A DNA stretch of 64,000 bases from Octopus sinensis (taxonomy: Eukaryota). Position 1 is the first letter of the stretch, and each line of letters starts with the position of its first letter. The stretch spans positions 21,390,001 to 21,454,000 of the forward strand of contig NC_043010.1 of assembly GCF_006345805.1 (NCBI RefSeq), read 5' to 3'. Positions 6,039 through 58,824 of this stretch are shown one piece after another. The notes under the pieces were generated by a model that saw nothing but the letters and a program-made list of their open reading frames with translations, was not told the DNA's origin and ran no database searches. The translations under genes were made by a program, and so were the position numbers.

Positions 6039-6255
6039 CGGAGTAAACACATAAATGTGAAACAAGGTGGAAAAAAGAGTACTCAAATACCAGTGGTAGA
6101 GTAATATGCTTTATTTTAAGCAGCAGAAAATTAAACAAAATCTGTTACTCTGAGTTTCTCGTTGCCGTCCATCAGACAGTTTTTGCTACTGATGAACGGC
6201 AACGAGAAACTCAGAGTAACAGATTTTGTTGAATTTTCTGCTGCTTAAAATAAAG
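6039..6255. mobile_element. PLE-type hairpin insert (family H2) with minimal hammerhead
   Basis: Inverted repeat 6109-6175/6189-6255 with a ~70-nt unpaired tail at 6039-6108, between (TA)n tracts. CTGATGA ACGGCAACGA GAAAC TCAGA GTA ACAG at 6189-6222. Confidence 0.75.
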
Positions 6256-6270
6256 TATATATATATATAC

Positions 6271-11164: not shown

Positions 11165-11464
11165 ATAGAAATGGCAAGACAACAAAAGAATGAAAGAGAC
11201 CTCGATATTATGTAAATAGGGGAATTTATCTGTAAATATAATATGTGACAATTATTCGGTAGCCATCATAAAACTCCGAGTTTCAGATGTCGGGGCGGAA
11301 ACCCACGCCGGTATCTCTTCAGTTATCGGGCCATCGAAAATTTTCTTAGCATTTTTTTCGATGGCCCGATAACTGAAGAGATCTCGGATTGAGTTTCCAC
11401 CCCGACAACCAAAACTCGGAGTTTTATCATGGCTACCGAATAATTGTCACATTTTATATTTACA
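11165..11464. mobile_element. PLE-derived hairpin insert, family H1
   Basis: Inverted repeat 11231-11340/11355-11464 plus a tail at 11165-11230. Homologous to 5090-5190, 23134-23382 and 43747-43946. Minus arm has an intact CUGAAGA...GAAAC UCGGA GUU. Confidence 0.85.
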
Positions 11465-14658: not shown

Positions 14659-15275
14659 CAAGCAGAAGGACCCGGTTTCACTCGGGTTATAAACTCATAG
14701 CCTTAACACTGTTCTCTTTGCCTGTAGTGTAAGATTAGTACATAATACTCAATGGTTTTACACTTTTGTACATTGCGTGCACATACTCTTCACGTAAGTG
14801 CTCCTTTATATACTATGTCTTTCTAGTTTATCACTGAGAATGTAGAGGTTCTCTTCATCTCCAACTCTGGAACATCCATCATACAGCTGACCTGGTGAGA
14901 AGCATGGCTGAAGAAGGTTAAGTCCCACCACCTTTAGAGATTGACCTTGTGCTTTGTTGATAGACATTGCAAAGCTCAGTTTGACACGAAACTGCAGTCT
15001 TTTGAACTGAAAAGGGAGATCATATGAGATGAGAGGTATCCTTGGAATGAAGACATTTTCACACATCATGTTGCCTGTAACTATCGTTGCTTCCAGCTGA
15101 TGGCGCATGATTGCTTTAGCAACAAACCCTGTTCCATTGCAGAGACTGTGGGCATCAAGGTTTCTTAAGAGCATTATAGAAGAACCTATTTTCATGATCA
15201 GAATGTGTGGCAGAAACCCTAGTGGTTGAAATAAATTGAGGAACTCCACAGGGTAATGCGTTGCCTGCCCGTGAT
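14659..15275 (-). mobile_element. Helitron 3' fragment: PIF1-family helicase C-terminus plus terminal hairpin
   Basis: YPVEFLN...IMLLRNLD...LCNGT...IPRIPL...FKRLQF...FAMSINKAQGQSL...GQLY..CSRV. Hairpin ACCCG/CGGGT at 14670-14687, followed on the minus strand by CTTG (degenerate CTRR) and T at 14662-14658. Confidence 0.88.
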
Positions 15276-15464
15276 CAGGGACAGAGTAATTTGATCTGTA
15301 CTTTCACATAGTCACTTGTGGCTTTTGTAGTTTGTGGCATGCATGTACGTAAGGCATGCGTACATATGCGGCTAGCATTTATGCAAATAGTACAGATAAC
15401 AAAACATGGGTGATAAAACATGTTTATTAACATCGTAATTTTCACACTTGTTTCCATACCGAAA

Positions 15465-23095: not shown

Positions 23096-23140
<45 letters not shown>

Positions 23141-23575
23141 GTGACAATTATTCGGTTGCCATAAGAAAACTCCGAGTTTCGGATGTCGGGCTGGAAATCT
23201 GCTCCGGCATCTAGTCAGTTATTAAGACAAGATGCCAGAGCAGATTTCCGCCCCGACATCTGAAACTCGGAGTTTTCTTATGGCAACCGAGTAATTGTCA
23301 CATATTATATTACAGATAAATTCCTCTATTTACATAATATCGAGGTCTCATTCCTTCTTTTGTTGTCATACTATTACTATTTATACATATATATATATAT
23401 ATATGTATAAATATATAGGCGCAGGAGTGGCTGTGTGGTAAGTAGTTTGCTAACCAACTACATGGTTCCGGGTTCAAGTTTACTGGGCTTAAGTACGGGG
23501 TCGATTTGCTCGACTAAAGGCGGTGCTCCAGCATGGCCGCAGTCAAATGACTGAAACAAGTAAAAAGAAAAAAAA

Positions 23576-24254: not shown

Positions 24255-25007
24255 ATCGATTTATGTTCCCGGAATTTGTTAATTTCTGTTCGTATTAGTG
24301 TTTATCGATGGTTCTTCTTCGACATTGGTTCTTAACGCTTATGAAGATCCAGTGGTCGTTATAGGAGAGCAGAAATTAATAATATAATATTTAAAAACAG
24401 TATGAACATAGAAAAATCAATTTATTTACATAATAGTCAATTTCATGTCGCCTACGTACGTTTCAATTCCCTCCTTCATTCAATTTTACAATTAAATTTG
24501 CATTATGAATTTAAAAGGTAAAACACACTTCATGGCAAAATATGATATATTTTCATATATATTCATTTACATCGTAATGGAAGGAGAGCTCCTTACATAC
24601 TAAATACAAGCATTTGTGTGTGTATGTGTGTGTATGTGTGTGTGTGTGCTTGAATGTGTCAGCATGTGAGACTTTGGATTCCATTCAAAAAACATCTATA
24701 GGTTCAACTTCGACCCTAATAAACAATGGACATTGTCTACTATGGTCGTAGGTTAACATCTGGCTATTTTTAGAGCGAAATGCAGGGTTAAACTACGATC
24801 ATAGTGGACAATAGCCATCGTCTACTATAGTCGTAGTTTAACCTCTAACTGGATTGGTAGACGGAAACTGAAATAAGACCGTCGTATATGTATATGTGTG
24901 TATAGGTCTGTGCGTTTGTGTTTGTCCCCCCCATCGCTTGACAACCGATACACACACATACATATATTCACATGCACACACACACATATATATATACACA
25001 CATATAG

Positions 25008-26057: not shown

Positions 26058-26728
<671 letters not shown>

Positions 26729-36569: not shown

Positions 36570-37030
36570 TTCTTTTCTACTCTAGGCACAAGGCACCCAA
36601 TCTTTTTTTTTGGCGGGATCCCAGTTGATTAGATCGATTCAGTACGCAACAGGTACTTAATTTATCGACCCCTAAAGGATGAAAGGCAGGGTTGACCTCG
36701 GCGGAATTTGAACTCAGAACGTAAGGACAGACGAAATACCGTTAAGCATTTCGCCCTGTGTGCTAAGGACTCTGCTAGCTCGCCGCCTAGATAGACTGAT
36801 ATGTTACAGGTTTTTCTTTTGTAATATTAATAACACTCTCTCCCCATTTGAAGGCGACGAGCTGGCACATTGTTAACACGTGGGACAAAATGCCTAGCAA
36901 CATTTCGTCCGTCTTCACATTCGGAGTTCAAATTCCACCAAGGTCGACTTTGCCTTTCATGCTTGCGGGTTGGATAATAAGAGTACCAATTAAGCACTGG
37001 CGTCAATGTAAACGTCTTACCTCGACTTTG
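36570..37030. mobile_element. Head-to-head SINE family B pair (minus 36570-36788, plus 36850-37030)
   Basis: Both copies show the head, B box and central domain, in opposite orientations. Confidence 0.8.
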
Positions 37031-38155: not shown

Positions 38156-39060
38156 CATATATATATATATATATATAGAATATGAGAGGTTTAGTTCACT
38201 GGTGATCTAAACGAATAGCACGCTGCCTAAGCTCTATAATTGGTCATACGTTAGATTCCAAGTTCACAGCTGAGGCTGGAGCTTAGGATCCGTAGTAGGC
38301 CACCGAGTGAGCAGGTATATTTTAGAGGAAGGAAAACAACAAAAACAAAGGCGGGACGAGTATCTCAAGTCATATATATATATATATATATATTGTTATA
38401 TTTCGGAATGGTCATATTGCCAGTTTAGCCAATAAAAACACACGCACTATATATTTGGTGTTATTTTGCTTCAGTGATATTTATTTTTTACATTAATCTT
38501 AATCTTATTTCGGCCAAAGTTCTTTCGTCACACTCCTGTGACCGCATCAGTGGTCCTTTGTTTTCTTCTCACTTACTTGTGTCTCTCCTTACTAACCGTC
38601 AGCCATTTTGTATTTCTATTGTATGTCTTCATTTGCGCATGCTTATATCTCTATGTGCGTCTATGTTTATTTAGTGTGTGTGTGGGGGATGCCTGTAATA
38701 TTTGTATCTTCTGGTTATATACATTCTTGTAATTTGTATTTTGTTTTTGTTGTTGTTGCTTTTGTTCTAATTTTGTTCATGTGTTTACATCCACCCATTA
38801 TTATCATTACATATGCTTGTATGTATGTATAACAACAATATTAGTAATAATAATAATAAATCTAATCGAAAAAAAAAAAAAGAATATACATATACATATA
38901 TATACATACACATACATATACATATATATATATATACATATATACACACATATATACACATATACATATACATATATATACACATACACATATATATAGA
39001 TATTCATTTCTATTTCTTTAATTACCTGTGTATTTATTATGTTTGCAGGATCCACTATTG

Positions 39061-40966
39061 TCATATGTTGTGGTGTGCGCTATTGCTCCATTCTAGTTTT
39101 CTATTCAGGCTAGGTTTATTTTCTATTATATGTGTAGCTTCTGTAATTTGTCTAATTGTTGCATCTGTTCTATGTGTGGACAATATCTTAATCTCTATGT
39201 TATTGTTTGATCCCCGTGTTCTTGTTCGGCATGTTGGTACAGAATCGATGAGCTTTTACCTTCCTTGAGTTGTCTCCAATGTTCATTCACCCGCTCACCA
39301 ATGCTTCTTGCAGTTTCCCCTACGTATGTTACTGTCTTGTTACTGCATCGTCCCTCTGTGCATCTTATACTATAGACCACATTTCTGGCTTTACAGTTCG
39401 TTTGTGAGCTAAATCTACATACAGTGCAATAGTTATCCGTACAGAGAGTTCTACTAAAAGGATAGCTTCTACCAATTATAGATCTGATAGGGTTGCCTGG
39501 CTTTTCAACAACCTTAATTCTTAGTTTAAGTTTATCTAGGGTCCTTCTAAAGCGGTACGCTAGTTCACCTCCAGGGGTGGTGTCAACGAACATGACACTC
39601 TGGTATTTATGGCTATCATACCAAGAGTTGGCCTTCCCTATTTTCTTTTTTGTCCTTTCTATAGTGTTCCATGACTTGTTCCTATAGAGTGGGCAAATCC
39701 CATTCCTATCATTACATAATATATTATCAAATTTCTTCATGGCTCCTTTGTATACTCTGATCCTTTCTTTATGGCTGTAACCTGAGAACTGCATGCGGTG
39801 AATGAAATACTGTATGTGTCTCTTTAATTCTGTAGGCTCGCACATGCGTGACACATTTCTCATTATTCTGACGAGGTCTGCCATCAAAATATTGAATTTG
39901 GCATTGCCCGCAATGGCTGAGTTCCGGTGGATCAGGTATTTTGAGGCCATAGGTTTTGCATAGTATGAATGAAGGATTTGGGTTTTATTTTTCACAATTT
40001 CTAGCCAGAGTTCAGTGTCTAGTACTGGTAGTCTATGGTTGGGGTGTTTAGTGGGGTAGTCTATTGTGACCTTAATACTCTGGTGGATGGAGTTAGCTAT
40101 TTGCTGGATGCTCTCCATAGTATTAGTTTCTATTACTATATCAACAGTACTCTCTTGTGGGGGTGCCTTTACTACTATATTGATATCATCAACATAGCGA
40201 GAGTACATGTTTACGAGTATGGATTTCTGCAGTAGGCATTCTTTAAGCCTTCTGTCCCACCATACCATGAAGAGGTTGGCCACATCACCAGCGATACTAA
40301 TACCGATGGCTGCCCCCTCGTCCTGGGCATATATTTTATTATTAAATTTAAATGTGTGGCCTTTTAGGGTAACTCTTATACTAGCTCCTAGTGCATGTGC
40401 GATCATTTTCTTTACCTGATGGACATTTGCGGGGCTCCGTATGGCTCTGGTCCATCCGCGCCATCTTTCTATATGTGTCTTCCTAGCCATAGAAGTAATT
40501 GTAGGCGGTCTACCTCTTAAACATCTACTGGGGCAGAAACTACTAAGATTATGTTTATCTAAGTATTCACTATTATATGTCAGTCTAAGTAGGAGGCCCA
40601 GTTCTTCTGTGTCGACATTACAGAACTCCACCTGGCTCTCGTTGATCATCTCCACGCACTTCTCCACTGCAAAATCTACGTCAATCGATGGGTATAGGGA
40701 TACCACATCCATGCTACCTACTATACATCCTGTCAAGTCACGAGTTTTGCTACAGTCACTGATCCTGCTTAGGAGATCTTCTGTGCTGTCACACACATCA
40801 GGTGACATCCTGATTATAGGGCGTATGATCATTGAGAGGAAGTAGGAGATTCTGTAATTGCTAGCGATATTCGCTCCACAGACTGGTCTTGTTGGTGGTC
40901 CTACTATAGGGTCAGTAAAACCTTTATGGTCCTTGCGAAGTCCATACAGTGCCGGGATATCATTGT
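39061..40966 (-). pseudogene. PLE reverse transcriptase plus GIY-YIG endonuclease (5'-truncated, one frameshift near 39213)
   Basis: LYGLRKDHK, PTRPVC, SMDVVSLYPSI, QDEGAAIG, YSRYVDD, LPVLD, Cys-rich linker CTDNYCTVC...C, VVYSIRC...YVGETARS...RVNEH. Confidence 0.9.
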
Positions 40967-42986
40967 ACAAAAGTAACAACTGTACAGGCACATGAGGAGA
41001 GAGAAAAGGTCCTCAATGCCCACATGATGATGTGGACAATTGTTCTGGGACCTCAGAAACGTACTGCAAAGAATTTCCAAGCCTGGAACAATGATATCCC
41101 GGCACTGTATGGACTTCGCAAGGACCATAAAGGTTTTACTGACCCTATAGCAGGACCACCAACAAGACCAGTCTGTGGAGCGAATATCGCTAGCAATTAC
41201 ATAATCTCCTACTTCCTCTCAATGATCATACGCCCTATAATCAGGATGTCACCTGATGTGTGTGACAGCACAGAAGATCTCCTAAGCAGGATCAGTGACT
41301 GTAACAAAACTTGTGACTTGACAGGATGTATATAGGTAGCATGGATGTGGTATCCCTATACCCATCGATTGACGTAGATTTTGCAGTGGAGAAGTGCGTG
41401 GAGATGATCAACGAGAGCCAGGTGGAGTTCTGTAATGTCGACACAGAAGAACTGGCCTCCTACTTAGACTGACATATAATAGTGAATACTTAGATAAACA
41501 TAATCTTAGTAGTTTCTGCCCCAGTAGATGTTTAAGAGGTAGACCGCCTACAATTACTTCTATGGCTAGGAAGACACATATAGAAAGATGGCGCGGATGG
41601 ACCAGAGCCATACGGAGCCCCGCAAATGTCCATCAGGTAAAGAAAATGATCGCACATGCACTAGGAGCTAGTATAGAGATTACCCTAAAAGGCCACACAT
41701 TTAAATTTAATAATAAAATATATGCCCAGGACGAGGGGGCAGCCATCGGTATTAGTATCGCTGGTGATGTGGCCAACCTCTTCATGGTATGGTGGGACAG
41801 AAGGCTTAAAGAATGCCTACTGCAGAAATCCATACTCGTAAACATGTACTCTCGCTATGTTGATGATATCAATATAGTAGTAAAGGCACCCCCACAAGAG
41901 AGTACTGTTGATATAGTAATAGAAACTAATACTATGGAGAGCATCCAGCAAATAGCTAACTCCATCCACCAGAGTATTAAGGTCACAATAGACTACCCCA
42001 CTAAACACCCCAACCATAGACTACCAGTACTAGACACTGAACTCTGGCTAGAAATTGTGAAAATAAAACCCAAATCCTTCATTCATACTATGCAAAACCA
42101 TGGCCTCAAAATACCTGATCCACCGGAACTCAGCCATTGCGGGCATGCCAAATTCAATATTTTGATGGCAGACCTCGTCAGAATAATGAGAAATGTGTCA
42201 CGCATGTGCGAGCCTACAGAATTAAAGAGACACATACAGTATTTCATTCACCGCATGCAGTTCTCAGGTTACAGCCATAAAGAAAGGATCAGAGTATACA
42301 AAGGAGCCATGAAGAAATTTGATAATATATTATGTAATGATAGGAATGGGATTTGCCCACTCTATAGGAACAAGTCATGGAACACTATAGAAAGGACAAA
42401 AAAGAAAATAGGGAAGGCCAACTCTTGGTATGATAGCCATAAATACCAGAGTGTCATGTTCGTTGACACCACCCCTGGAGGTGAACTAGCGTACCGCTTT
42501 AGAAGGACCCTAGATAAACTTAAACTAAGAATTAAGGTTGTTGAAAAGCCAGGCAACCCTATCAGATCTATAATTGGTAGAAGCTATCTTTTAGTAGAAC
42601 TCTCTGTACGGATAACTATTGCACTGTATGTAGATTTAGCTCACAAACGAACTGTAAAGCCAGAAATGGGTCTATAGTATAAGATGCATAGAGGGACGAT
42701 GCAGTACAAGACAGTAACATACGTAGGGGAAACTGCAAGAAGCATTGGTGAGCGGGTGAATGAACATTGGAGACAACTCAAGGAAGGTAAAAGCTCATCG
42801 ATTCTGTACCAACACGCCGAACAAGAACACGGGGGATCAATCAATAACATAGAGATTAAGATATTGCCCACACATAGAACAGATGCAACAATTAGACAAA
42901 TTACAGAGGCTACACATATAATAGAAAATAAACCTAGCCTGAATAGAAAACTAGAATGGAGCAATAGCGCACACCACAACATATGA
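40967..42986 (+). pseudogene. Second copy of the PLE RT-GIY-YIG ORF with several short indels
   Basis: Same protein split over ORFs 40949-41335, 41562-42677 and 42684-42986, ending ...[20 protein letters not shown]. Confidence 0.9.
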
Positions 42987-43499
42987 CAATAGTGGATCCT
43001 GCAAACATAATAAATACACAGGTAATTAAAGAAATAGAAATGAATATCTATATATATGTGTATGTGTATATATATGTATATGTATATGTGTATATATGTG
43101 TGTATATATGTATATATATATATATATATGTATATGTATGTGTATGTATATATATGTATATGTATATTCTTTTTTTTTTTTTTTTTTCGATTAGATTTAT
43201 TATTATTATTACTAATATTGTTGTTATACATACATACAAGCATATGTAATGATAATAATGGGTGGATGTAAACACATGAACAAAATTAGAACAAAAGCAA
43301 CAACAACAAAAACAAAATACAAATTACAAGAATGTATATAACCAGAAGATACAAATATTACAGGCATCCCCCCACACACACACTAAATAAACATAGACGC
43401 ACATAGAGATATAAGCATGCGCAAATGAAGACATACAATAGAAATACAAAATGGCTGACGGTTAGTAAGGAGAGACAAAGTAAATGAGAAGAAAACAAA

Positions 43500-43544
43500 G
43501 GACCACTGATGCGGTCACAGGAGTGTGACGAAAGAACTTTGGCC
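43500..43544 (+). ncRNA. Variant hammerhead motif (H6) in the PLE 3' UTR; mirrored at 38512-38556 on the minus strand
   Basis: GGACCA CUGAUGCG GUCAC aggagu GUGAC GAAAG AA CUU^UGGCC. Confidence 0.55.
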
Positions 43545-43746
43545 GAAATAAGATTAAGATTAATGTAAAAAATAAATATCACTGAAGCAAAATAACACCA
43601 AATATATAGTGCGTGTGTTTTTATTGGCTAAACTGGCAATATGACCATTCCGAAATATAACAATATCTGTTTCAACACACGACTTCACATAAAAAATCTT
43701 GCACAACAAATATTTAAACGTATATATATATATATATATATATATA

Positions 43747-43946
43747 ATATGTGACAGTTAGTTGGTTGTCATAATAGCGTTTTGTCTTAATAACTGATGA
43801 GATGTCGGAGCAGGCTTCAGCCCCGGTATCCGAAACTCTGAATTTTATTATGACAACCAACTAATTGTCACATATATTTATAGATATATTCCTCTATTTT
43901 ACATAATATCGAGGTCTCATTCATTCTTTTGTTGTCATATTATTAA
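43747..43946. mobile_element. PLE-derived hairpin insert, family H1, with HHR at 43788-43850 (+)
   Basis: Inverted repeat 43747-43776/~43846-43875. UAAUAA CUGAUGA GAUGUCGG...CCGGUAUC C GAAAC UCUGA AUU^UUAUUA. Confidence 0.82.
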
Positions 43947-44072
43947 TATATATATATATGCAAATATACAGATATATATGTGTATACATGTACATATATA
44001 TATACACATATATATGCATATAGATATACATACATACATACATGCATACATACATACATACATACATACATA

Positions 44073-45365
44073 CAAGGGGCGTTCAATAAGTAATGCCCCT
44101 GACCCACTTCCCATAGCAGTAGAGCAACGAAACTTGGCACAGTTATTAGTCTTTTTCTACATAGGAACCACCCAGAGTTACGCGTTTCTCCCATCGTTTG
44201 ATGCATCGCTGGAGACCGTTTTTGTAGAAGACCCCAGCTTGGTCCTCCAACCACGACGTGACTTTAGAAATCAAGGCTGCATCATCTGTGAAATGCTTTC
44301 CTTTCAAAAACAACTTCATGGCTGGGAAAAGGTGAAAATCAGAGGGTGCAAGGTCAGGAGCGTAGGGGGGATGGGGGAGGAGTTCATAGCAGCACGCCTG
44401 TGCTTCTGATCTGGCGACACGCGAGTTGTGGACCGGAGTGTTGTCCTGCAGGAGGAGGATGCCTTTGCTGATCTTGCCCCACCTCTTGATTTTGATAGCT
44501 TCTCTTAATTTCCTCAAAAGTGAAGCATAATAGGCTCCTGTAATTGTGGTACCCGTTGCCAGGAAATCTGTCATCACTACTCCGTCCTGGTCTCAGAAGA
44601 CTGTGAGCATGACCTTGCCAGCGGAGGGCTGCACCCTTACCTTCTTTGGAGGATGTGAGTCACGGTGCTTCCACTGCATTGACTGGGCTTTGGTCTCTGA
44701 ATCATAGTGATGGACCCAGGTTTCATCCTGTGTAATCAGTCTTTTGAAAAATTTTGACTCATTTTCTTGGCACATCTCCAAATTCATCCTCGAGCACTCG
44801 ACGCGTTCTTGCTTCTGGAAAGGTGTGAGCAACCTGAGAATCCATCTGGCAGACACCTTTTGCATATGCAAATGGTCATGAATGATAGTTTCCACAGACC
44901 CGGTACTAATCTTGACCTCATGAGCTATTTGGCGAATAGTTATGCATCGATCTTCCAAAATGGCAGCCTCAACTTGACGCACAGATGCCTCATCAATGGC
45001 AGAAGGGGGGTGACCAGATCTGGGAGCTGTTTCCACAGAGTTCCGACCATGTTTGAATTCACGATGCCAGCGTTTTACAAGGTCATATGATGGGGCATCA
45101 TCACCATAAGTTACTTTCATTTCATCAAAAGTCTCCTGTGGTGTGCTTCCTTTCAAATACAAAAATCGGATCACTGCTCGACACTCAACAGGCTCCGTTT
45201 CACACTTGACTCAGTTCAAACACCTGTAAATCAGAAACCACAATTAGCTCAGAGCTGTAATTTGCCACTTAATCTATAGAGATATACATAATTGCACATG
45301 CAAACTTTCAGCTAGATCAAACAACTGCAAGTGGGTCAGAGGCATTACTTATTGAACGTCCCTCG
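44073..45365 (-). mobile_element. Full-length mariner (Tc1/mariner, D,D34D) transposon
   Basis: ~37-bp TIRs CAAGGGGCGTTCAATAAGTAATGCCCCTGACCCACTT and its near reverse complement; TA target duplication at 44071-44072 and 45366-45367. Confidence 0.95.
44146..45198 (-). pseudogene. Mariner transposase, ~350 codons, inactivated
   Basis: Probable start ATG>ACG at 45198 and in-frame TGA at 44593-44595. Motifs WILRLL, TQDETW, LLQDNTPVH, HPPYAPDLAPSDF. Confidence 0.92.
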
Positions 45366-45395
45366 TACATACATACATACATATATATATATATA

Positions 45396-48236
45396 TCGGA
45401 ACTCCACCGATTCAATTTTGACACCGTATCTCTCAGTGAAACCCGGAGAGCCGGAGAAGGCCGGCTGAGAGAAGAAGGCGGTCAATACACCTTTTTCTGG
45501 AAAGGTTACGATCCCGACCACCAACGGATCCATGGTGTGGGTTTTGCAATACGAAATACCATCCTATCCAAACTGACAGAGCAGCCTATTGGAATGTCCG
45601 CACGACTCATGACCCTCCGAATCCAGCTTGTCAAAAGTCAGCACGCAACTATCATCAGTGCGTATGCTCCCATCCTTGACGCGGAGGATTTAGTCAAGGA
45701 GGAGTTTTACAGCCAACTCGACAGCATTCTCTCTACCGTCCCAAAGGACGACAAGATCATTCTCCTGGGAGATTTCCACGCCAGAGTTGGGAGAGATCGT
45801 GAACTCTGGACAGGAACCATCGGAAAGGAAGGAGTGGGAAAAGTCAATGCCAATGGAACTCTGCTACTCAACAAATGTGCTGAACATAACCTGGTGATAA
45901 CCAACACCCTTTTTCGCCAGAAGAATCGATATAAGGTCTCACGGCAGCATCCAAGATCGAAACAATGGCATCTCATCGACTATATCATCGTGAGATCCCG
46001 AGACCAGCAAGATGTGTTGCTCACCAGAGCCGCCACTGGAGCAGATGAGTGCTGGACAGATCATCGCCTCATCGCCTCCACCATGAAAATCAAACTCCGA
46101 CCAAAAGTGAAATATCACAGCAAGGAAAGCAGAGTAAAGAAATTCAACATCGAAGCACTGCAAGACCCAAACACTCGTGTTGCTCTACAGGTCAATCATC
46201 AAAATTAGACTCCAAACCATCTCGTCGAAGAAAATTGGAACCAGCTGAAAGAAACCATCATCACCGCTTGCGAAGAAACCATCGGCCGCAAGAAAAGGAA
46301 ACACCAGGACTGGTTCGACGACAATGATGAAGCTCTCAAAGAACTGGTCGACCAAAGGCGGAGGTAATAAATACTAGATTAGCAAGAATAATCTGAACGC
46401 TAAAAGGTTAATATCAGACCTTGTTTTTTTCTTTCCTTCTCGCGCCACGCCTGGCTCATAAGGACCGGTTTCCCGGTTTCCTTGGCGTATAGGTTCCCCA
46501 CCTGGACGGGATGCCGGTCCATCTACAAGCTGGGAGGTGATTTTGTCCAACACCAGCTCCACCAACTCTTGGTCAAAATCTGGACAAATGAAGTTGTACC
46601 ATCCGACTTCAGGGATGCCAACATCATTACCATTTACAAAAGAAAGGGCGATCGTTCTGAGTGTGGAAATTACCGGGGTATTTCCTTATTAGCAACTGCT
46701 GGGAAGATTCTTGCACGCATCCTGAACAACCGTCTCAAAACGCTGTCAGAGAGGATCCTTCCTGAGACACAGACCAGCTTTAGGCCATCATGAAGCACAA
46801 CCGACATGATCTTCACGCTGCGACAGCTACAAGAAAAATGTCGTGAACAACACCAACCGCTCTACTTGGCCTTTATCGACCTATCCAAAGCCTTTGATCG
46901 TGTCTCGCGAGAGCTCCTCTGGGATATTCTCGCCCAGTATGGATGCCCAGATAAGTTCATCCGGATCCTCAAACTCCTCCACGACAATATGCACGCCAGA
47001 GTCCAGACCGACGGAGGCAGTTCTGAGTCCTTTAAAGTCACCTCCGGAGTGAAGCAAGGCTGCGTGATAGCGCCAACTCTCTTTACCATCTTTATCGCGA
47101 CAGTGTTGCACATCATACGAGATGACCTTCCACCTGGCATCGAGATCTCTTACAGAATGGACGGCAAGCTTTTCAACCTCGCTTGCCTCAAAAGTACGTC
47201 AAAGACAATGGTGCAAAGCTTGCTAGAGTTCCAATATGCCGACGACAACAGTGTAGCAGCTCACAGAGAGGATCACCTCCAACAGATCCTAAATGCTTTT
47301 CATCATGCATATACTAAACTTGGACTGAGCATCAACATCAAGAAGACTCAATTACTCTACCAACCTCCCCCCAATGCCCGTGTTGACAACCCGCCATCGA
47401 TTCAACTCGAAGGAAATCCACTGGAAAATGTGAACCACTTCTGCTACCTTGGGAGCCATCTGTCAGCAAAGGTAGACCTCAGCGATGAAATCCAACACCG
47501 TCTGAAGTGTGCAGGAACAGCTTTCGGCAAGCTTCGAACAAGAGTTTTTGCTGATCTGGACATCCGAACCGAAACCAAACTCATGGTGTACAGGGCAGTC
47601 ATTATTCCAACCCTCCTTTACGCATCCGAAACCTGGACCCCGTATAGTCATCACCTGAAAACGCTCGAGAAATTTCACCAACGCTGTCTTCGGAAGATCC
47701 TCAACATCAGCTGGGAAGACAGAAGAACTAACGTCAGCGTGCTACAAGAAGCAAAAATGACCAGCATCGAAGCCTATGTCATCAAAGGCCAACTAAGATG
47801 GAGTGGCCACGTGGTTAGAATGATTGACGAACGACTTCCCAAACAGATCTTCTACTCCCAACTCAAAGACGGCAAGCGCACAAAAGTGGGCCAGAAGAAA
47901 CGCTACAAGGACTCCCTGAAATTGAACCTCAAAAAGTGTGACATTGACTTCACCAACTGGGAGGAAACGGCAAAAAACAGACCACTCTGGAAAACCACCA
48001 TCCATGAGGGAACGGCGAATTTCGAGTCGAAAAGGTCTGCAGAGCTGGAGGAGAAAAGACGACGACGGAAGGAGCGCCAACAACAACCATGTGCGACTCT
48101 CCCTTCCGGCACTAGATGTCCGCACTGTGACCGATCTTTTCGAGCAAGAATTGGTCTTATCAGTCACCTGCGGACTCACCAATAAATTTGCGCGAAGACC
48201 ATCATCCTCGACCTTGAGGGATTGCCATAGTAGTAG
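45396..48236 (+). mobile_element. 5'-truncated RTE-clade LINE (APE + RT + C-terminal CCHH), disrupted
   Basis: APE: LSETRR, GFAI, SAYAP, LLGDFHARVG, IDYI, TDH. RT: NYRGISLL, FIDLSKAFD, GVKQGC, YADD. C-terminus CPHC...HLRTH; (TAG)n tail. Frameshift at ~46200, stop at 46791, linker replaced at 46364-46520. Confidence 0.93.
46430..46523 (-). mobile_element. 3' fragment of SINE family D inside the RTE LINE
   Basis: Reverse complement GATGGACCGGCATCCCGTCCAGG...GAAACCGGGAAACCGG matches 55598-55680. Confidence 0.75.
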
Positions 48237-56900: not shown

Positions 56901-57118
<218 letters not shown>

Positions 57119-57858
57119 TAATACAAATAAGAAAATGGAGAAATACACCTTAATCAATAATCAACTACCAGATAATACCCAATCACATAATTTATTAAAC
57201 CACTACATATGAACATTGAGGTCAAACATAATAGTATAGAACAAAACAATGTACATCAATGAGTAATATGATACAATAAGTACAGCATGTATAAGTGAAT
57301 ATAAATAAATACAAATATGATATTCATATTTAATTTAGTTTGTACTTCATAATCTCTGAAGAGGCCTTGGGATATTTTTGTAAGTGTCTCATTTGTAACC
57401 GCATATTAACTTATCACACATGGCTAATATGTGCATAATGAGATACCCATATCTGCATGGCTGAAACAGCTGTAAGATGTAGTTTATATTTATATTTGTA
57501 TTTATTTATATTCACTTATACATGCTGTACTTATTGTATCATATTACTCATTGATGTACATTGTTTTGTTCTATACTATTACGTTTGACCTTAATGTTCA
57601 TATGTAGTGGTTTAATAAATTATGTGATTGGGTAGTATCTGGTAGTTGATTATTGATTAAGGTGTATTTCTCCATTTTCTTAATTTGTATTATTAATTTG
57701 TGGTAAAACATTTACCTTTGCCCATATAATACAGTAAATGAATTAATTGCATCGCAATTCTTAACAGTTATGTATTAAATTTGTTGGATGCTTTACTAGC
57801 AGTATATTGGATATATGTTATCCCATGGTGGGTTGCACTCACAACCCCTATCTCAATT

Positions 57859-58222: not shown

Positions 58223-58318
58223 AATTACAGAATAATAAAGAAATAGATATATGTGTCGCATTAGGAAAGCAAATAATAGCAATGCAGTGGATGTTATTGT
58301 ATTTCATATATATACATG

Positions 58319-58351
<33 letters not shown>

Positions 58352-58470
58352 TCACATATGCATATATATACACACATACATACATATGTATATATATATA
58401 TATGGACGTAATAGAATGTCTACCTGCTGATGTATATCCTTTTTGTATCCCCTCCATTTTCTTCTTGCCC

Positions 58471-58501
<31 letters not shown>

Positions 58502-58824
58502 CTATATATATCTACATATATATATCTTTACACACACACACATATATATACATATACATATACATATACATACATATATATACACACACATACATATATA
58601 CATACACACACATATATATATATATATATACATGTATATGTGTGTGTGTACAAGTGTGATTTGTGTACTAAAACACATACACGTATATATAAACACCCAT
58701 ATATATATATTGTGTATACGCACGCACACACACTCATATATGAAATATAATTACATTCACTACATTAATATTATTTCTTTTAGTAATGCGACACATTTAT
58801 TTACTTCTTTATGGTTCTGTAATT
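58223..58824. repeat. Diverged ~88-bp inverted repeat flanking microsatellite
   Basis: 58223-58310 is similar to the reverse complement of 58737-58824 (shared AATTACAGAA..ATAAAGAA, ATGTGTCGCATTA, ATTTCATA). Confidence 0.7.

What the first reader, a model, noticed from the sequence alone, without database searches (positions are those of the whole stretch)
38390..43720. 5.3-kb palindrome of a near-intact Penelope-like RT-GIY-YIG element
Seen: two ~2.58-kb arms joined at their truncated 5' ends across a 121-nt spacer that is in-frame upstream ORF of the right copy. Only the right copy keeps the 54-nt tail. The left arm is open for ~590 codons through YVDD and the GIY-YIG motif. The arms differ by substitutions (PIVG/PIAG, NYRI/NYII, SKTR/NKTC, clustered near the junction) and by short indels. 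Inference: this is the full-size version of the small hairpins, with an inversion covering most of the ORF rather than only the pLTR. It appears young and is a likely source of long dsRNA or cruciform instability.
Basis: partly seen in the sequence, partly recalled or inferred. Interest (0 to 1): 0.72.

Follow-up and report, generated by a model that had tools for sequence, protein, structure and literature searches.

The report
Octopus Penelope-like retrotransposon head-to-head palindrome
This is a truncated, non-functional octopus jumping gene inserted as two back-to-back copies, a known habit of Penelope-like elements, but its reverse transcriptase belongs to a lineage with an extra, apparently undescribed 70-residue segment where telomerase carries its finger insertion.

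Summary
The palindrome is in the sequence as described: arms of 2,577 and 2,579 nt (98.8% identical), a 121-nt spacer of native coding sequence, a 54-nt tail on the right only, and (TA)n on both sides. It is most likely a real insertion (about 0.85) of a Penelope-like element (PLE) with a C-terminal endonuclease, from an octopus. Head-to-head 5'-truncated copies with one tail are standard PLE anatomy; five small hairpins of other families in the window share it. The right arm's eight single-base ORF deletions look like palindrome-induced read errors. The ten substitutions form two clusters, not one. A 121-nt spacer makes cruciform extrusion unlikely, and dsRNA is untested. The more novel point is the protein: RT motif A to motif B' spans 128 residues (123-141 in 162 of 162 measurable proteins) against 57-60 in four canonical C-terminal-endonuclease PLEs and 115 in human telomerase. 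The extra ~70 residues are conserved, fold confidently and match no solved structure. The zinc-finger linker is Nematis-like; no tree with named references could be built.

The parts
38372..38389 (.). (TA)n run at the left boundary (target microsatellite)
   Evidence: distance 0 from the left arm end, run 18 nt
38390..40966 (-). Left arm: 5'-truncated PLE copy without tail
39198..40964 (-). 589-codon open frame: RT motifs 1-7, thumb, CX4CxxC linker, most of GIY-YIG; ends by a frameshift at the G run at 39216
   Evidence: 97% to P0001 in one frame; pLDDT 91
40425..40634 (-). About 70-residue insertion between RT motifs 3(A) and 4(B') (residues ~111-180), at the position of the telomerase IFD; same segment is present in the right arm
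   Evidence: compared by hand with Fig. S1 of PMC8557442
39381..39443 (-). CX4CxxC-X7-C zinc-finger-like linker (residues 508-528), Nematis-like spacing
38514..38556 (-). Minimal type I hammerhead-like motif in the left 3' region (core departs from consensus at position 9)
40967..41087 (+). 121-nt spacer: native coding sequence just upstream of the arms; junction at 40966/40967 centres an 8-bp palindrome
41088..43666 (+). Right arm: 5'-truncated PLE copy; ORF broken by eight single-base deletions and one del/ins swap, correct frame at the endonuclease C-terminus (stop at 42984-42986)
43500..43542 (+). Minimal type I hammerhead-like motif in the right 3' region
   Evidence: 0 of 2,000 shuffles of the 540-nt region give such a hit; not significant by folding energy alone
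43667..43720 (+). 54-nt tail, right end only
   Evidence: single copy in the window, so its element origin is inferred from anatomy
43721..43746 (.). (TA)n run at the right boundary, shared with a small hairpin of another family that follows

Best explanation
A single retrotransposition event of an octopus PLE family put two 5'-truncated copies head to head into a (TA)n microsatellite. Shown: PLE protein, native spacer, one tail, (TA)n at both ends, a hammerhead-like motif near each 3' end. Inferred mechanism, preferred version (about 0.45): the endonuclease nicked both target strands and each 3'-OH primed a cDNA, one from the outer start site (with tail) and one from the inner start site (tail-less); both stopped within 121 nt of each other and were end-joined. 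Alternative within the same event (about 0.35): one cDNA folded back and primed its own copy. The insertion was dead on arrival because the N-terminal part of the ORF is missing. The right arm's single-base deletions are mostly sequencing or consensus errors provoked by the palindrome; the substitutions are probably post-insertion mutations, with the central 1.4 kb homogenised by arm-to-arm gene conversion or by polishing. The family belongs to a Nematis-like lineage whose RT carries a conserved ~70-residue insertion in the fingers; by position, the likeliest role is extra contact with the template-primer duplex, as the telomerase IFD does (inference only).
For: Boundaries fall on PLE-meaningful sites and the two flanks are unrelated. 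6 of 6 hairpins examined have spacers of 9-173 nt with arms of 36-2,577 nt and a simple-repeat run at or within 17 nt of one arm only. PMC8557442 (passages) describes inverted 5'-truncated copies, one-sided tails and (TA)n bias; PMC11167929 (passages) shows a PLE protein cutting and extending both target strands, with two RT start sites that delimit the tail. Family copies lie on at least five O. vulgaris scaffolds of different length. Error reading: 8 frameshifting deletions in 1.9 kb of the right arm against 0-2 in about 4 kb of adjacent mariner and LINE coding sequence (Fisher p 1e-4 to 3e-3) and 1 in the left arm (binomial p 0.04); missed bases in the second arm of inverted duplications are documented for nanopore reads (PMC7229812, passages). 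8 of 10 substitutions are transitions (p 0.003); both arms carry private alleles against 7 other close copies. Insertion.
Against: No reads, no second assembly and no empty-site allele could be examined. No target-site duplication can be read inside (TA)n. At most 1 nt of junction microhomology is possible given the native codon upstream, so neither priming model has direct support. Private alleles are lopsided (4 left, 1 right at the five polarisable sites), and the 1,377-nt substitution-free gap (P=0.006) needs an extra process. Transitions also dominate nanopore substitution errors (own knowledge), and a one-armed deletion excess would also arise in a fold-back chimeric read. The sequencing platform is unknown.
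Confidence: 0.82

Rival explanations
1. Assembly artefact: a fold-back chimeric read from one PLE copy was extended into a second, tail-less copy elsewhere, joining two unrelated flanks.
For: Strong one-armed excess of missing bases; lopsided private alleles would fit arms drawn from two loci; multi-copy family at 97-100% protein identity.
Against: A simple fold-back would mirror the tail and the right flank as well; it does not. The arm stops exactly where the small, older hairpins stop, and those are too short and too diverged (up to 11 substitutions in 110 nt) to be long-read chimeras. Over the central 450 codons both arms share six residues that differ from P0001, so they have one recent source.
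Confidence: 0.12
2. A normal 5'-truncated copy inserted first, and host repair or replication later made the inverted duplication.
For: Inverted duplications with a short native spacer are a known product of fold-back repair (own knowledge); 8-bp palindrome at the junction and the same 4-mer at spacer start and arm start (chance about 0.009, noticed after the fact).
Against: A host event has no reason to end precisely 54 nt short of the element's end at a (TA)n run, nor to repeat this anatomy in five other PLE-like hairpins.
Confidence: 0.04
3. The right-arm deletions are real mutations (hairpin-associated decay), so the right copy is truly a pseudogene and the arms are older than 0.4% suggests.
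For: 5 of 10 missing bases are not in runs; local substitution density reaches about 2% in two patches.
Against: Natural decay gives far fewer indels than substitutions (own knowledge); here 7 of the 8 ORF deletions sit in the tract with no substitution, although that tract is 73% of the ORF part.
Confidence: 0.12

Closest known systems
Canonical endonuclease-positive Penelope-like elements: complex tandem/inverted insertions (PMC8557442 Fig. 2 legend; PMC3846280)
   Same: RT followed by GIY-YIG; inverted 5'-truncated copy adjoining the 5' end; head-to-head junction with a small palindrome; tail at one end; microsatellite target; minimal hammerhead near the 3' end.
   Different: Arms are 2.58 kb and hold most of the ORF rather than mainly the pLTR; tail is 54 nt (30-40 nt quoted); no upstream direct pLTR and no full-length copy in the unit.
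Nematis clade (Nematis_C4, _Pp, _Cr in Figs S1, S2, S7 of PMC8557442)
   Same: CX2-5CxxC linker with 7 residues to the next Cys; lengthened loop between RT1 and RT2; V-x-x-VEKPG before the linker as in Nematis_Pp; endonuclease ends P-x-LN (by eye).
   Different: Motif A to B' distance 128 against 60 in the C. remanei sequence; the printed Nematis examples are from nematodes. No tree was built.
Neptune clade
   Same: C-terminal endonuclease, CX2-5CxxC linker, CCHH motif, simple-repeat targeting.
   Different: Linker spacing 7 against 25-27 in two printed Neptune sequences counted; motif A to B' 128 against 57 (DreriNep1).
Naiad/Chlamys PLEs and telomerase RT (IFD)
   Same: Insertion between RT3(A) and RT4(B'); the modelled RT's best structural matches are telomerases (human TERT Z 16.9, rmsd 4.0, 319 aligned). 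Naiads occur in octopus and target (TA)n.
   Different: Endonuclease is C-terminal here. The insertion is longer (128 against 81 in Naiad-Amil, 115 in human TERT) and, folded alone, gave no telomerase among the listed matches.
Adineta vaga Pen3/Pen5a Cys-rich insert between RT motifs 3 and 4 (PMC3846280)
   Same: A C-terminal-endonuclease PLE with an insert at the same position.
   Different: That insert is short and Cys-rich in Penelope/Poseidon-group elements; this one is about 70 residues with one conserved Cys and conserved Glu, Arg, Gly, Pro and Trp.

Membership tests
Endonuclease-positive Penelope-like element | Single ORF with telomerase-related RT | tested here: met
   RVT_1 weak hit below the curated cut-off; fold closest to telomerases; ESM Atlas clusters with RVT_1, GIY-YIG and HTH_animal at 0.95
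Endonuclease-positive Penelope-like element | GIY-YIG endonuclease with CCHH motif | tested here: met
   PF01541 E 0.004 in the left ORF, 6.6e-7 in relative P0081; C535, C540, H562, H578, H583 at least 90% conserved in 124 sequences
Endonuclease-positive Penelope-like element | Tandem or inverted 5'-truncated arrangement with one-sided tail | tested here: met
   tail origin inferred from anatomy
Endonuclease-positive Penelope-like element | Minimal type I hammerhead in the pLTR | tested here: inconclusive
   Core, 6-bp stem II and short stems I/III found in both arms; 0 of 2,000 local shuffles; position 9 departs from consensus; no hammerhead family among the 150 of 227 Rfam rows shown; cleavage untested
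Endonuclease-positive Penelope-like element | pLTR as a direct repeat containing the ORF start | not testable with these tools
   No tandem copy in the window and no eukaryotic DNA collection; relatives' N-termini gave no tblastn hit in the 3' region
Nematis clade | CX2-5CxxC linker before a C-terminal endonuclease | tested here: met
   (59 of 61 relatives that reach the endonuclease); spacing 7 in 92 of 118 measured
Nematis clade | RT phylogeny groups with Nematis | not testable with these tools
   No named clade reference was returned by any search, so no tree was built
Neptune clade | CX2-5CxxC linker before a C-terminal endonuclease | tested here: met
   but spacing 5-11 against 25-27 in printed Neptunes
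Neptune clade | RT phylogeny groups with Neptune | not testable with these tools
   as for Nematis
Penelope/Poseidon clade | No Cys-rich linker between RT and endonuclease | tested here: not met
   linker present
Naiad/Chlamys | N-terminal endonuclease | tested here: not met
   GIY-YIG at residues 545-587, after RT
Hydra clade | CCHH motif absent | tested here: not met
   CCHH residues conserved
Telomerase IFD | Insertion between RT3(A) and RT4(B') | tested here: met
   128 residues; 126-132 in 120 of 124 aligned rows
Telomerase IFD | Same fold or common ancestry as the TERT IFD | tested here: inconclusive
   116-residue model, pLDDT 88.7; best Z 5.1, unrelated; no TERT listed

The most novel reading that the evidence does not exclude
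The element represents an unnamed, widespread PLE lineage (277 cluster representatives at E<=1e-30) that joins a C-terminal, Nematis-like endonuclease to an RT with its own folded subdomain at the telomerase IFD position, larger than the human IFD and of a fold not in the PDB. This would break the published rule that only N-terminal-endonuclease PLEs carry an IFD, and would give a natural test of whether finger insertions raise processivity and so permit multi-kilobase inverted arms.
Probability: 0.45. Interest if true: 0.6.

Novelty: new variant of a known kind. Interest (0 to 1): 0.4.

Why it matters
The palindrome itself is a long example of a known PLE insertion form, useful as a test locus: its tailed and tail-less ends and native spacer can distinguish two-strand priming from cDNA fold-back, an open question in PLE biology. 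It is also a warning that one arm of a long palindrome can be falsely pseudogenised in an assembly. The RT insertion matters more: PLE RTs are the closest relatives of telomerase, and whether the IFD is ancestral or repeatedly gained is stated as unresolved in PMC8557442. A C-terminal-endonuclease lineage with a large, conserved, differently folded insertion at that site favours repeated gain and supplies an enzyme to test it.

Tried and rejected
Rfam scan of the window: only microsatellite-driven miRNA noise among the 150 of 227 rows shown, no hammerhead family. phmmer of the ORF against PDB sequences: nothing at E<=1; the profile gave only short bacterial RT and I-TevI matches. Folding energy of the hammerhead region: z -1.2, not informative. 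Fold searches of the insertion alone: no Foldseek match at E<=0.001, best VIA Z 5.1 among 48,161 chains; this absence does not show the fold is new. ESM Atlas search of the insertion: only unnamed clusters at 0.90-0.92. Word-index search with the insertion alone found 2 proteins, both O. vulgaris, among 35 candidates, a sensitivity limit. Full-length master: none among the best 120 of 299 and 120 of 121 hits; the longest close copy, P0001, loses frame inside the endonuclease. Same-family origin of the small hairpins: rejected, no DNA similarity. The 36662-36977 inverted pair was left out of the hairpin count because its arms are only 69% alike and match a dispersed repeat; the nested 26115-26620 structure, 58223-58824 and 24786-24843 were also not counted. 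Junction microhomology: at most 1 nt. (a stretch aligned to itself) served no purpose and was not used. Four lineage motifs were absent from the supplement of PMC8557442. Tree against named clades: not built.
Full report
OBSERVATION. The left arm runs 38390-40966 and the right arm 41088-43666; they match at 2,557 of 2,589 columns, with 10 substitutions and 15 indel events. A 121-nt spacer separates them, 54 nt follow the right arm only, and (TA)n runs close both ends. The left and right flanks are unrelated; the left flank is single-copy in the window and the right flank is a small hairpin of another repeat family.

IDENTITY. The left arm has a 589-codon open frame with weak Pfam RVT_1 and GIY-YIG hits, both below the curated cut-offs. 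Its closest relative is an Octopus vulgaris predicted protein, CAI9736119.1 (P0001), 97% identical in one frame over residues 246-800. Further O. vulgaris copies lie on four other scaffolds of different length (P0121, P0122, P0202, P0345), so the host is inferred to be an octopus of that group and the family is dispersed. The spacer encodes P0001 residues 205-245, so it is native sequence. An AlphaFold model from 124 sequences (mean pLDDT 91) is closest to telomerases (human TERT Z 16.9, rmsd 4.0, 319 aligned), as expected for a PLE. The linker has CX4CxxC and the endonuclease has the CCHH residues. Each 3' region holds a hammerhead-like core with a 6-bp stem II; 0 of 2,000 shuffles of the 540-nt region reproduce it, although the whole-window scan yields 0.43 hits per shuffle under looser rules against 5 observed. 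Position 9 of the core departs from the consensus I recall, so activity is doubtful.

INTACTNESS. Neither arm can be autonomous. The right copy with its spacer starts at P0001 residue 205 and the left at 246; relatives of about 1,030 residues have 370-410 residues ahead of the left arm's start. The left frame ends at a G run (39216), before the conserved endonuclease Glu, which the right arm retains in frame. The right arm has eight unpaired single-base deletions in the ORF and one del/ins swap, with the left reading supported by P0001. No intact master was found; P0001 itself leaves the frame inside the endonuclease.

ARM DIFFERENCES. Ten bases are missing from the right arm, five of them outside any run; five events shorten the left arm, four of them in runs or microsatellite and one the swap partner. 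The adjacent mariner ORF reads 353 codons in one frame with one stop, and the LINE has at most one short disturbed patch; 8 frameshifts in 1.9 kb against 0-2 in about 4 kb gives Fisher p 1e-4 to 3e-3. The excess is therefore local to the palindrome. PMC7229812 (passages read) reports missed bases in the second arm of inverted duplications in nanopore reads; the platform here is unknown, so this is a plausible cause, not a shown one. Substitutions fall 64-225 nt (4), 1,602-1,821 nt (5) and 2,397 nt (1) from the junction; the 1,377-nt gap has P=0.006 under uniform placement and 8 of 10 are transitions. Against seven close copies, the left arm is private at three junction-proximal sites and the right at one; a fourth left-private site rests on P0001 alone. 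One left change hits an Asn found in 112 of 113 rows with a residue. The simplest reading is mutation after insertion with the middle homogenised by gene conversion or by short-read polishing; I cannot separate these. On the clock quoted in PMC13282606 (0.09 at 25 My; passages read) the arms are about 0.6 My old overall, up to 3 My from the densest patches.

REAL OR ARTEFACT. A plain fold-back chimera would mirror the tail and right flank. Instead the left arm stops 54 nt early at (TA)n. Five small hairpins (6.1, 11.2, 23.1, 43.7, 57.1 kb) show the same pattern: spacers 9-173 nt, a simple-repeat run at or within 17 nt of one arm, and for four of them a stretch of 63-165 nt before the run on the other side. 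They share no DNA similarity with the large element, so they are other families with the same mechanism; the 57-kb one has a hammerhead-like motif in its spacer. I put a real insertion at about 0.85. A two-locus misjoin remains possible without reads.

MECHANISM. PMC11167929 (passages) shows an anole PLE protein cutting and extending both target strands, preferring AT-rich DNA, and starting reverse transcription at two sites that bound the tail. The geometry here fits directly: the antisense strand of each arm is attached by its 5' end to a target strand, one with and one without the tail. I prefer this two-strand priming (0.45) to cDNA fold-back or self-priming (0.35), which PMC3846280 (Discussion read in full) proposes for head-to-head junctions with palindromes; the junction here is an 8-bp palindrome and short spacers at all arm lengths fit a single template. 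Microhomology is at most 1 nt, so neither is proven. A search for Penelope with twin priming and inversion returned three papers whose listings do not concern PLEs. Cruciform extrusion is unlikely across 121 nt (own knowledge), though a single-strand hairpin would be very stable. dsRNA would need read-through or antisense transcription, which was not tested.

THE PROTEIN LINEAGE. The distance from the motif A Asp to the motif B' Gln is 128 residues. It is 123-141 in 162 of 162 proteins where both motifs could be found, out of 345 held; the other 183 were fragments or missed the patterns. All were retrieved by similarity to this protein, so this shows a coherent lineage, not its boundary. Hand counts from Fig. 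S1 of PMC8557442 give 58 (Penelope), 60 (Poseidon), 60 (C. remanei Nematis), 57 (zebrafish Neptune), 81 (Naiad-Amil) and 115 (human TERT; first block not seen, Asp position assumed and checked from memory). The extra ~70 residues are as conserved as the neighbouring helices (mean top-residue frequency 0.49, occupancy 0.98) and have near-invariant E121, L124, R147, G151, P154, R167 and W171. Folded alone they score pLDDT 88.7 and match nothing convincingly. PMC8557442 states that, unlike canonical PLEs, N-terminal-endonuclease PLEs have the IFD, and notes sporadic IFD-like regions in Coprina; PMC3846280 notes a short Cys-rich insert at this site in two rotifer families. Searches found no paper describing this lineage's insertion, but the library lacks most subscription papers (including Arkhipova 2006, not read) and Repbase, and bioRxiv supplements were closed. 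By motif the lineage resembles Nematis: 7 residues from CxxC to the next Cys (92 of 118 measured; Neptune 25-27), a long RT1-RT2 loop (11 in 101 of 146), and P-x-LN at the end (71 of 97) (compared by eye). Clade membership was not tested by a tree.

PAPERS SEEN. PMC8557442: passages, section 12, supplement parts 1, 54, 57, 58 and two supplement searches. PMC3846280: passages and Discussion. PMC11167929, PMC7229812, PMC6155905, PMC13282606: passages. bioRxiv 10.64898/2026.07.22.740005: first fifth and passages. PMC13282606 lists 336 recently active Penelope-like insertions in O. vulgaris and does not contain the words palindrome or hairpin. Hammerhead numbering, indel-to-substitution expectations, nanopore error bias and cruciform limits are recalled.

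VERDICT. Observation confirmed; interpretation partly supported. The palindrome is a long, probably real, dead example of a known PLE insertion form, worth about 0.25 alone. The fingers insertion in a C-terminal-endonuclease lineage raises the overall score to 0.4.

Noticed in passing
window 6104-6260, 11231-11464, 23132-23310, 43741-43882, 57118-57693: Five small head-to-head hairpins with PLE-like anatomy (simple-repeat flank, short spacer, one-sided tail); the 11.2, 23.1 and 43.7 kb ones are one family. Hammerhead-like cores are visible in several, clearest in the 57-kb spacer.
   Followed up: partly
window 26115-26620: Nested inverted structure (outer 89-nt and inner ~65-nt arms) with a hammerhead-like core at 26357; probably a tandem-plus-inverted PLE remnant.
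   Followed up: no
window 44071-45367: Mariner transposon with terminal inverted repeats and a 353-codon transposase frame broken by a single stop, on the - strand.
   Followed up: partly
window 45395-48235: LINE with APE endonuclease, RT and a C-terminal C2H2 finger; a cluster of stops at 46365-46401 suggests a short insertion or out-of-frame patch.
   Followed up: partly
window 14809-15303 (-): Pif1 helicase 2B-domain fragment (E 6.5e-10), possibly a Helitron remnant.
   Followed up: no
protein P0122 / P0201 (CAI9737557.1, CAI9737556.1): O. vulgaris gene models named dynein regulatory complex subunit 6-like begin with about 150 residues of this PLE family; probably a prediction artefact, possibly exonisation.
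   Followed up: no
protein P0001 residues 1-75: Asn/Ser/Gly-rich N-terminus; may be a gene-model artefact from simple repeats, or akin to the Asn-rich inserts of rotifer Penelope elements.
   Followed up: no
window 40963-40970 and 41088-41091: The spacer and the arms begin with the same four bases, making an 8-bp palindrome at the junction (chance about 0.009, noticed after the fact); may record a short template jump.
   Followed up: partly
window 36662-36977: Inverted pair of a dispersed SINE-like repeat, 69% alike; likely two separate insertions rather than a PLE hairpin.
   Followed up: no
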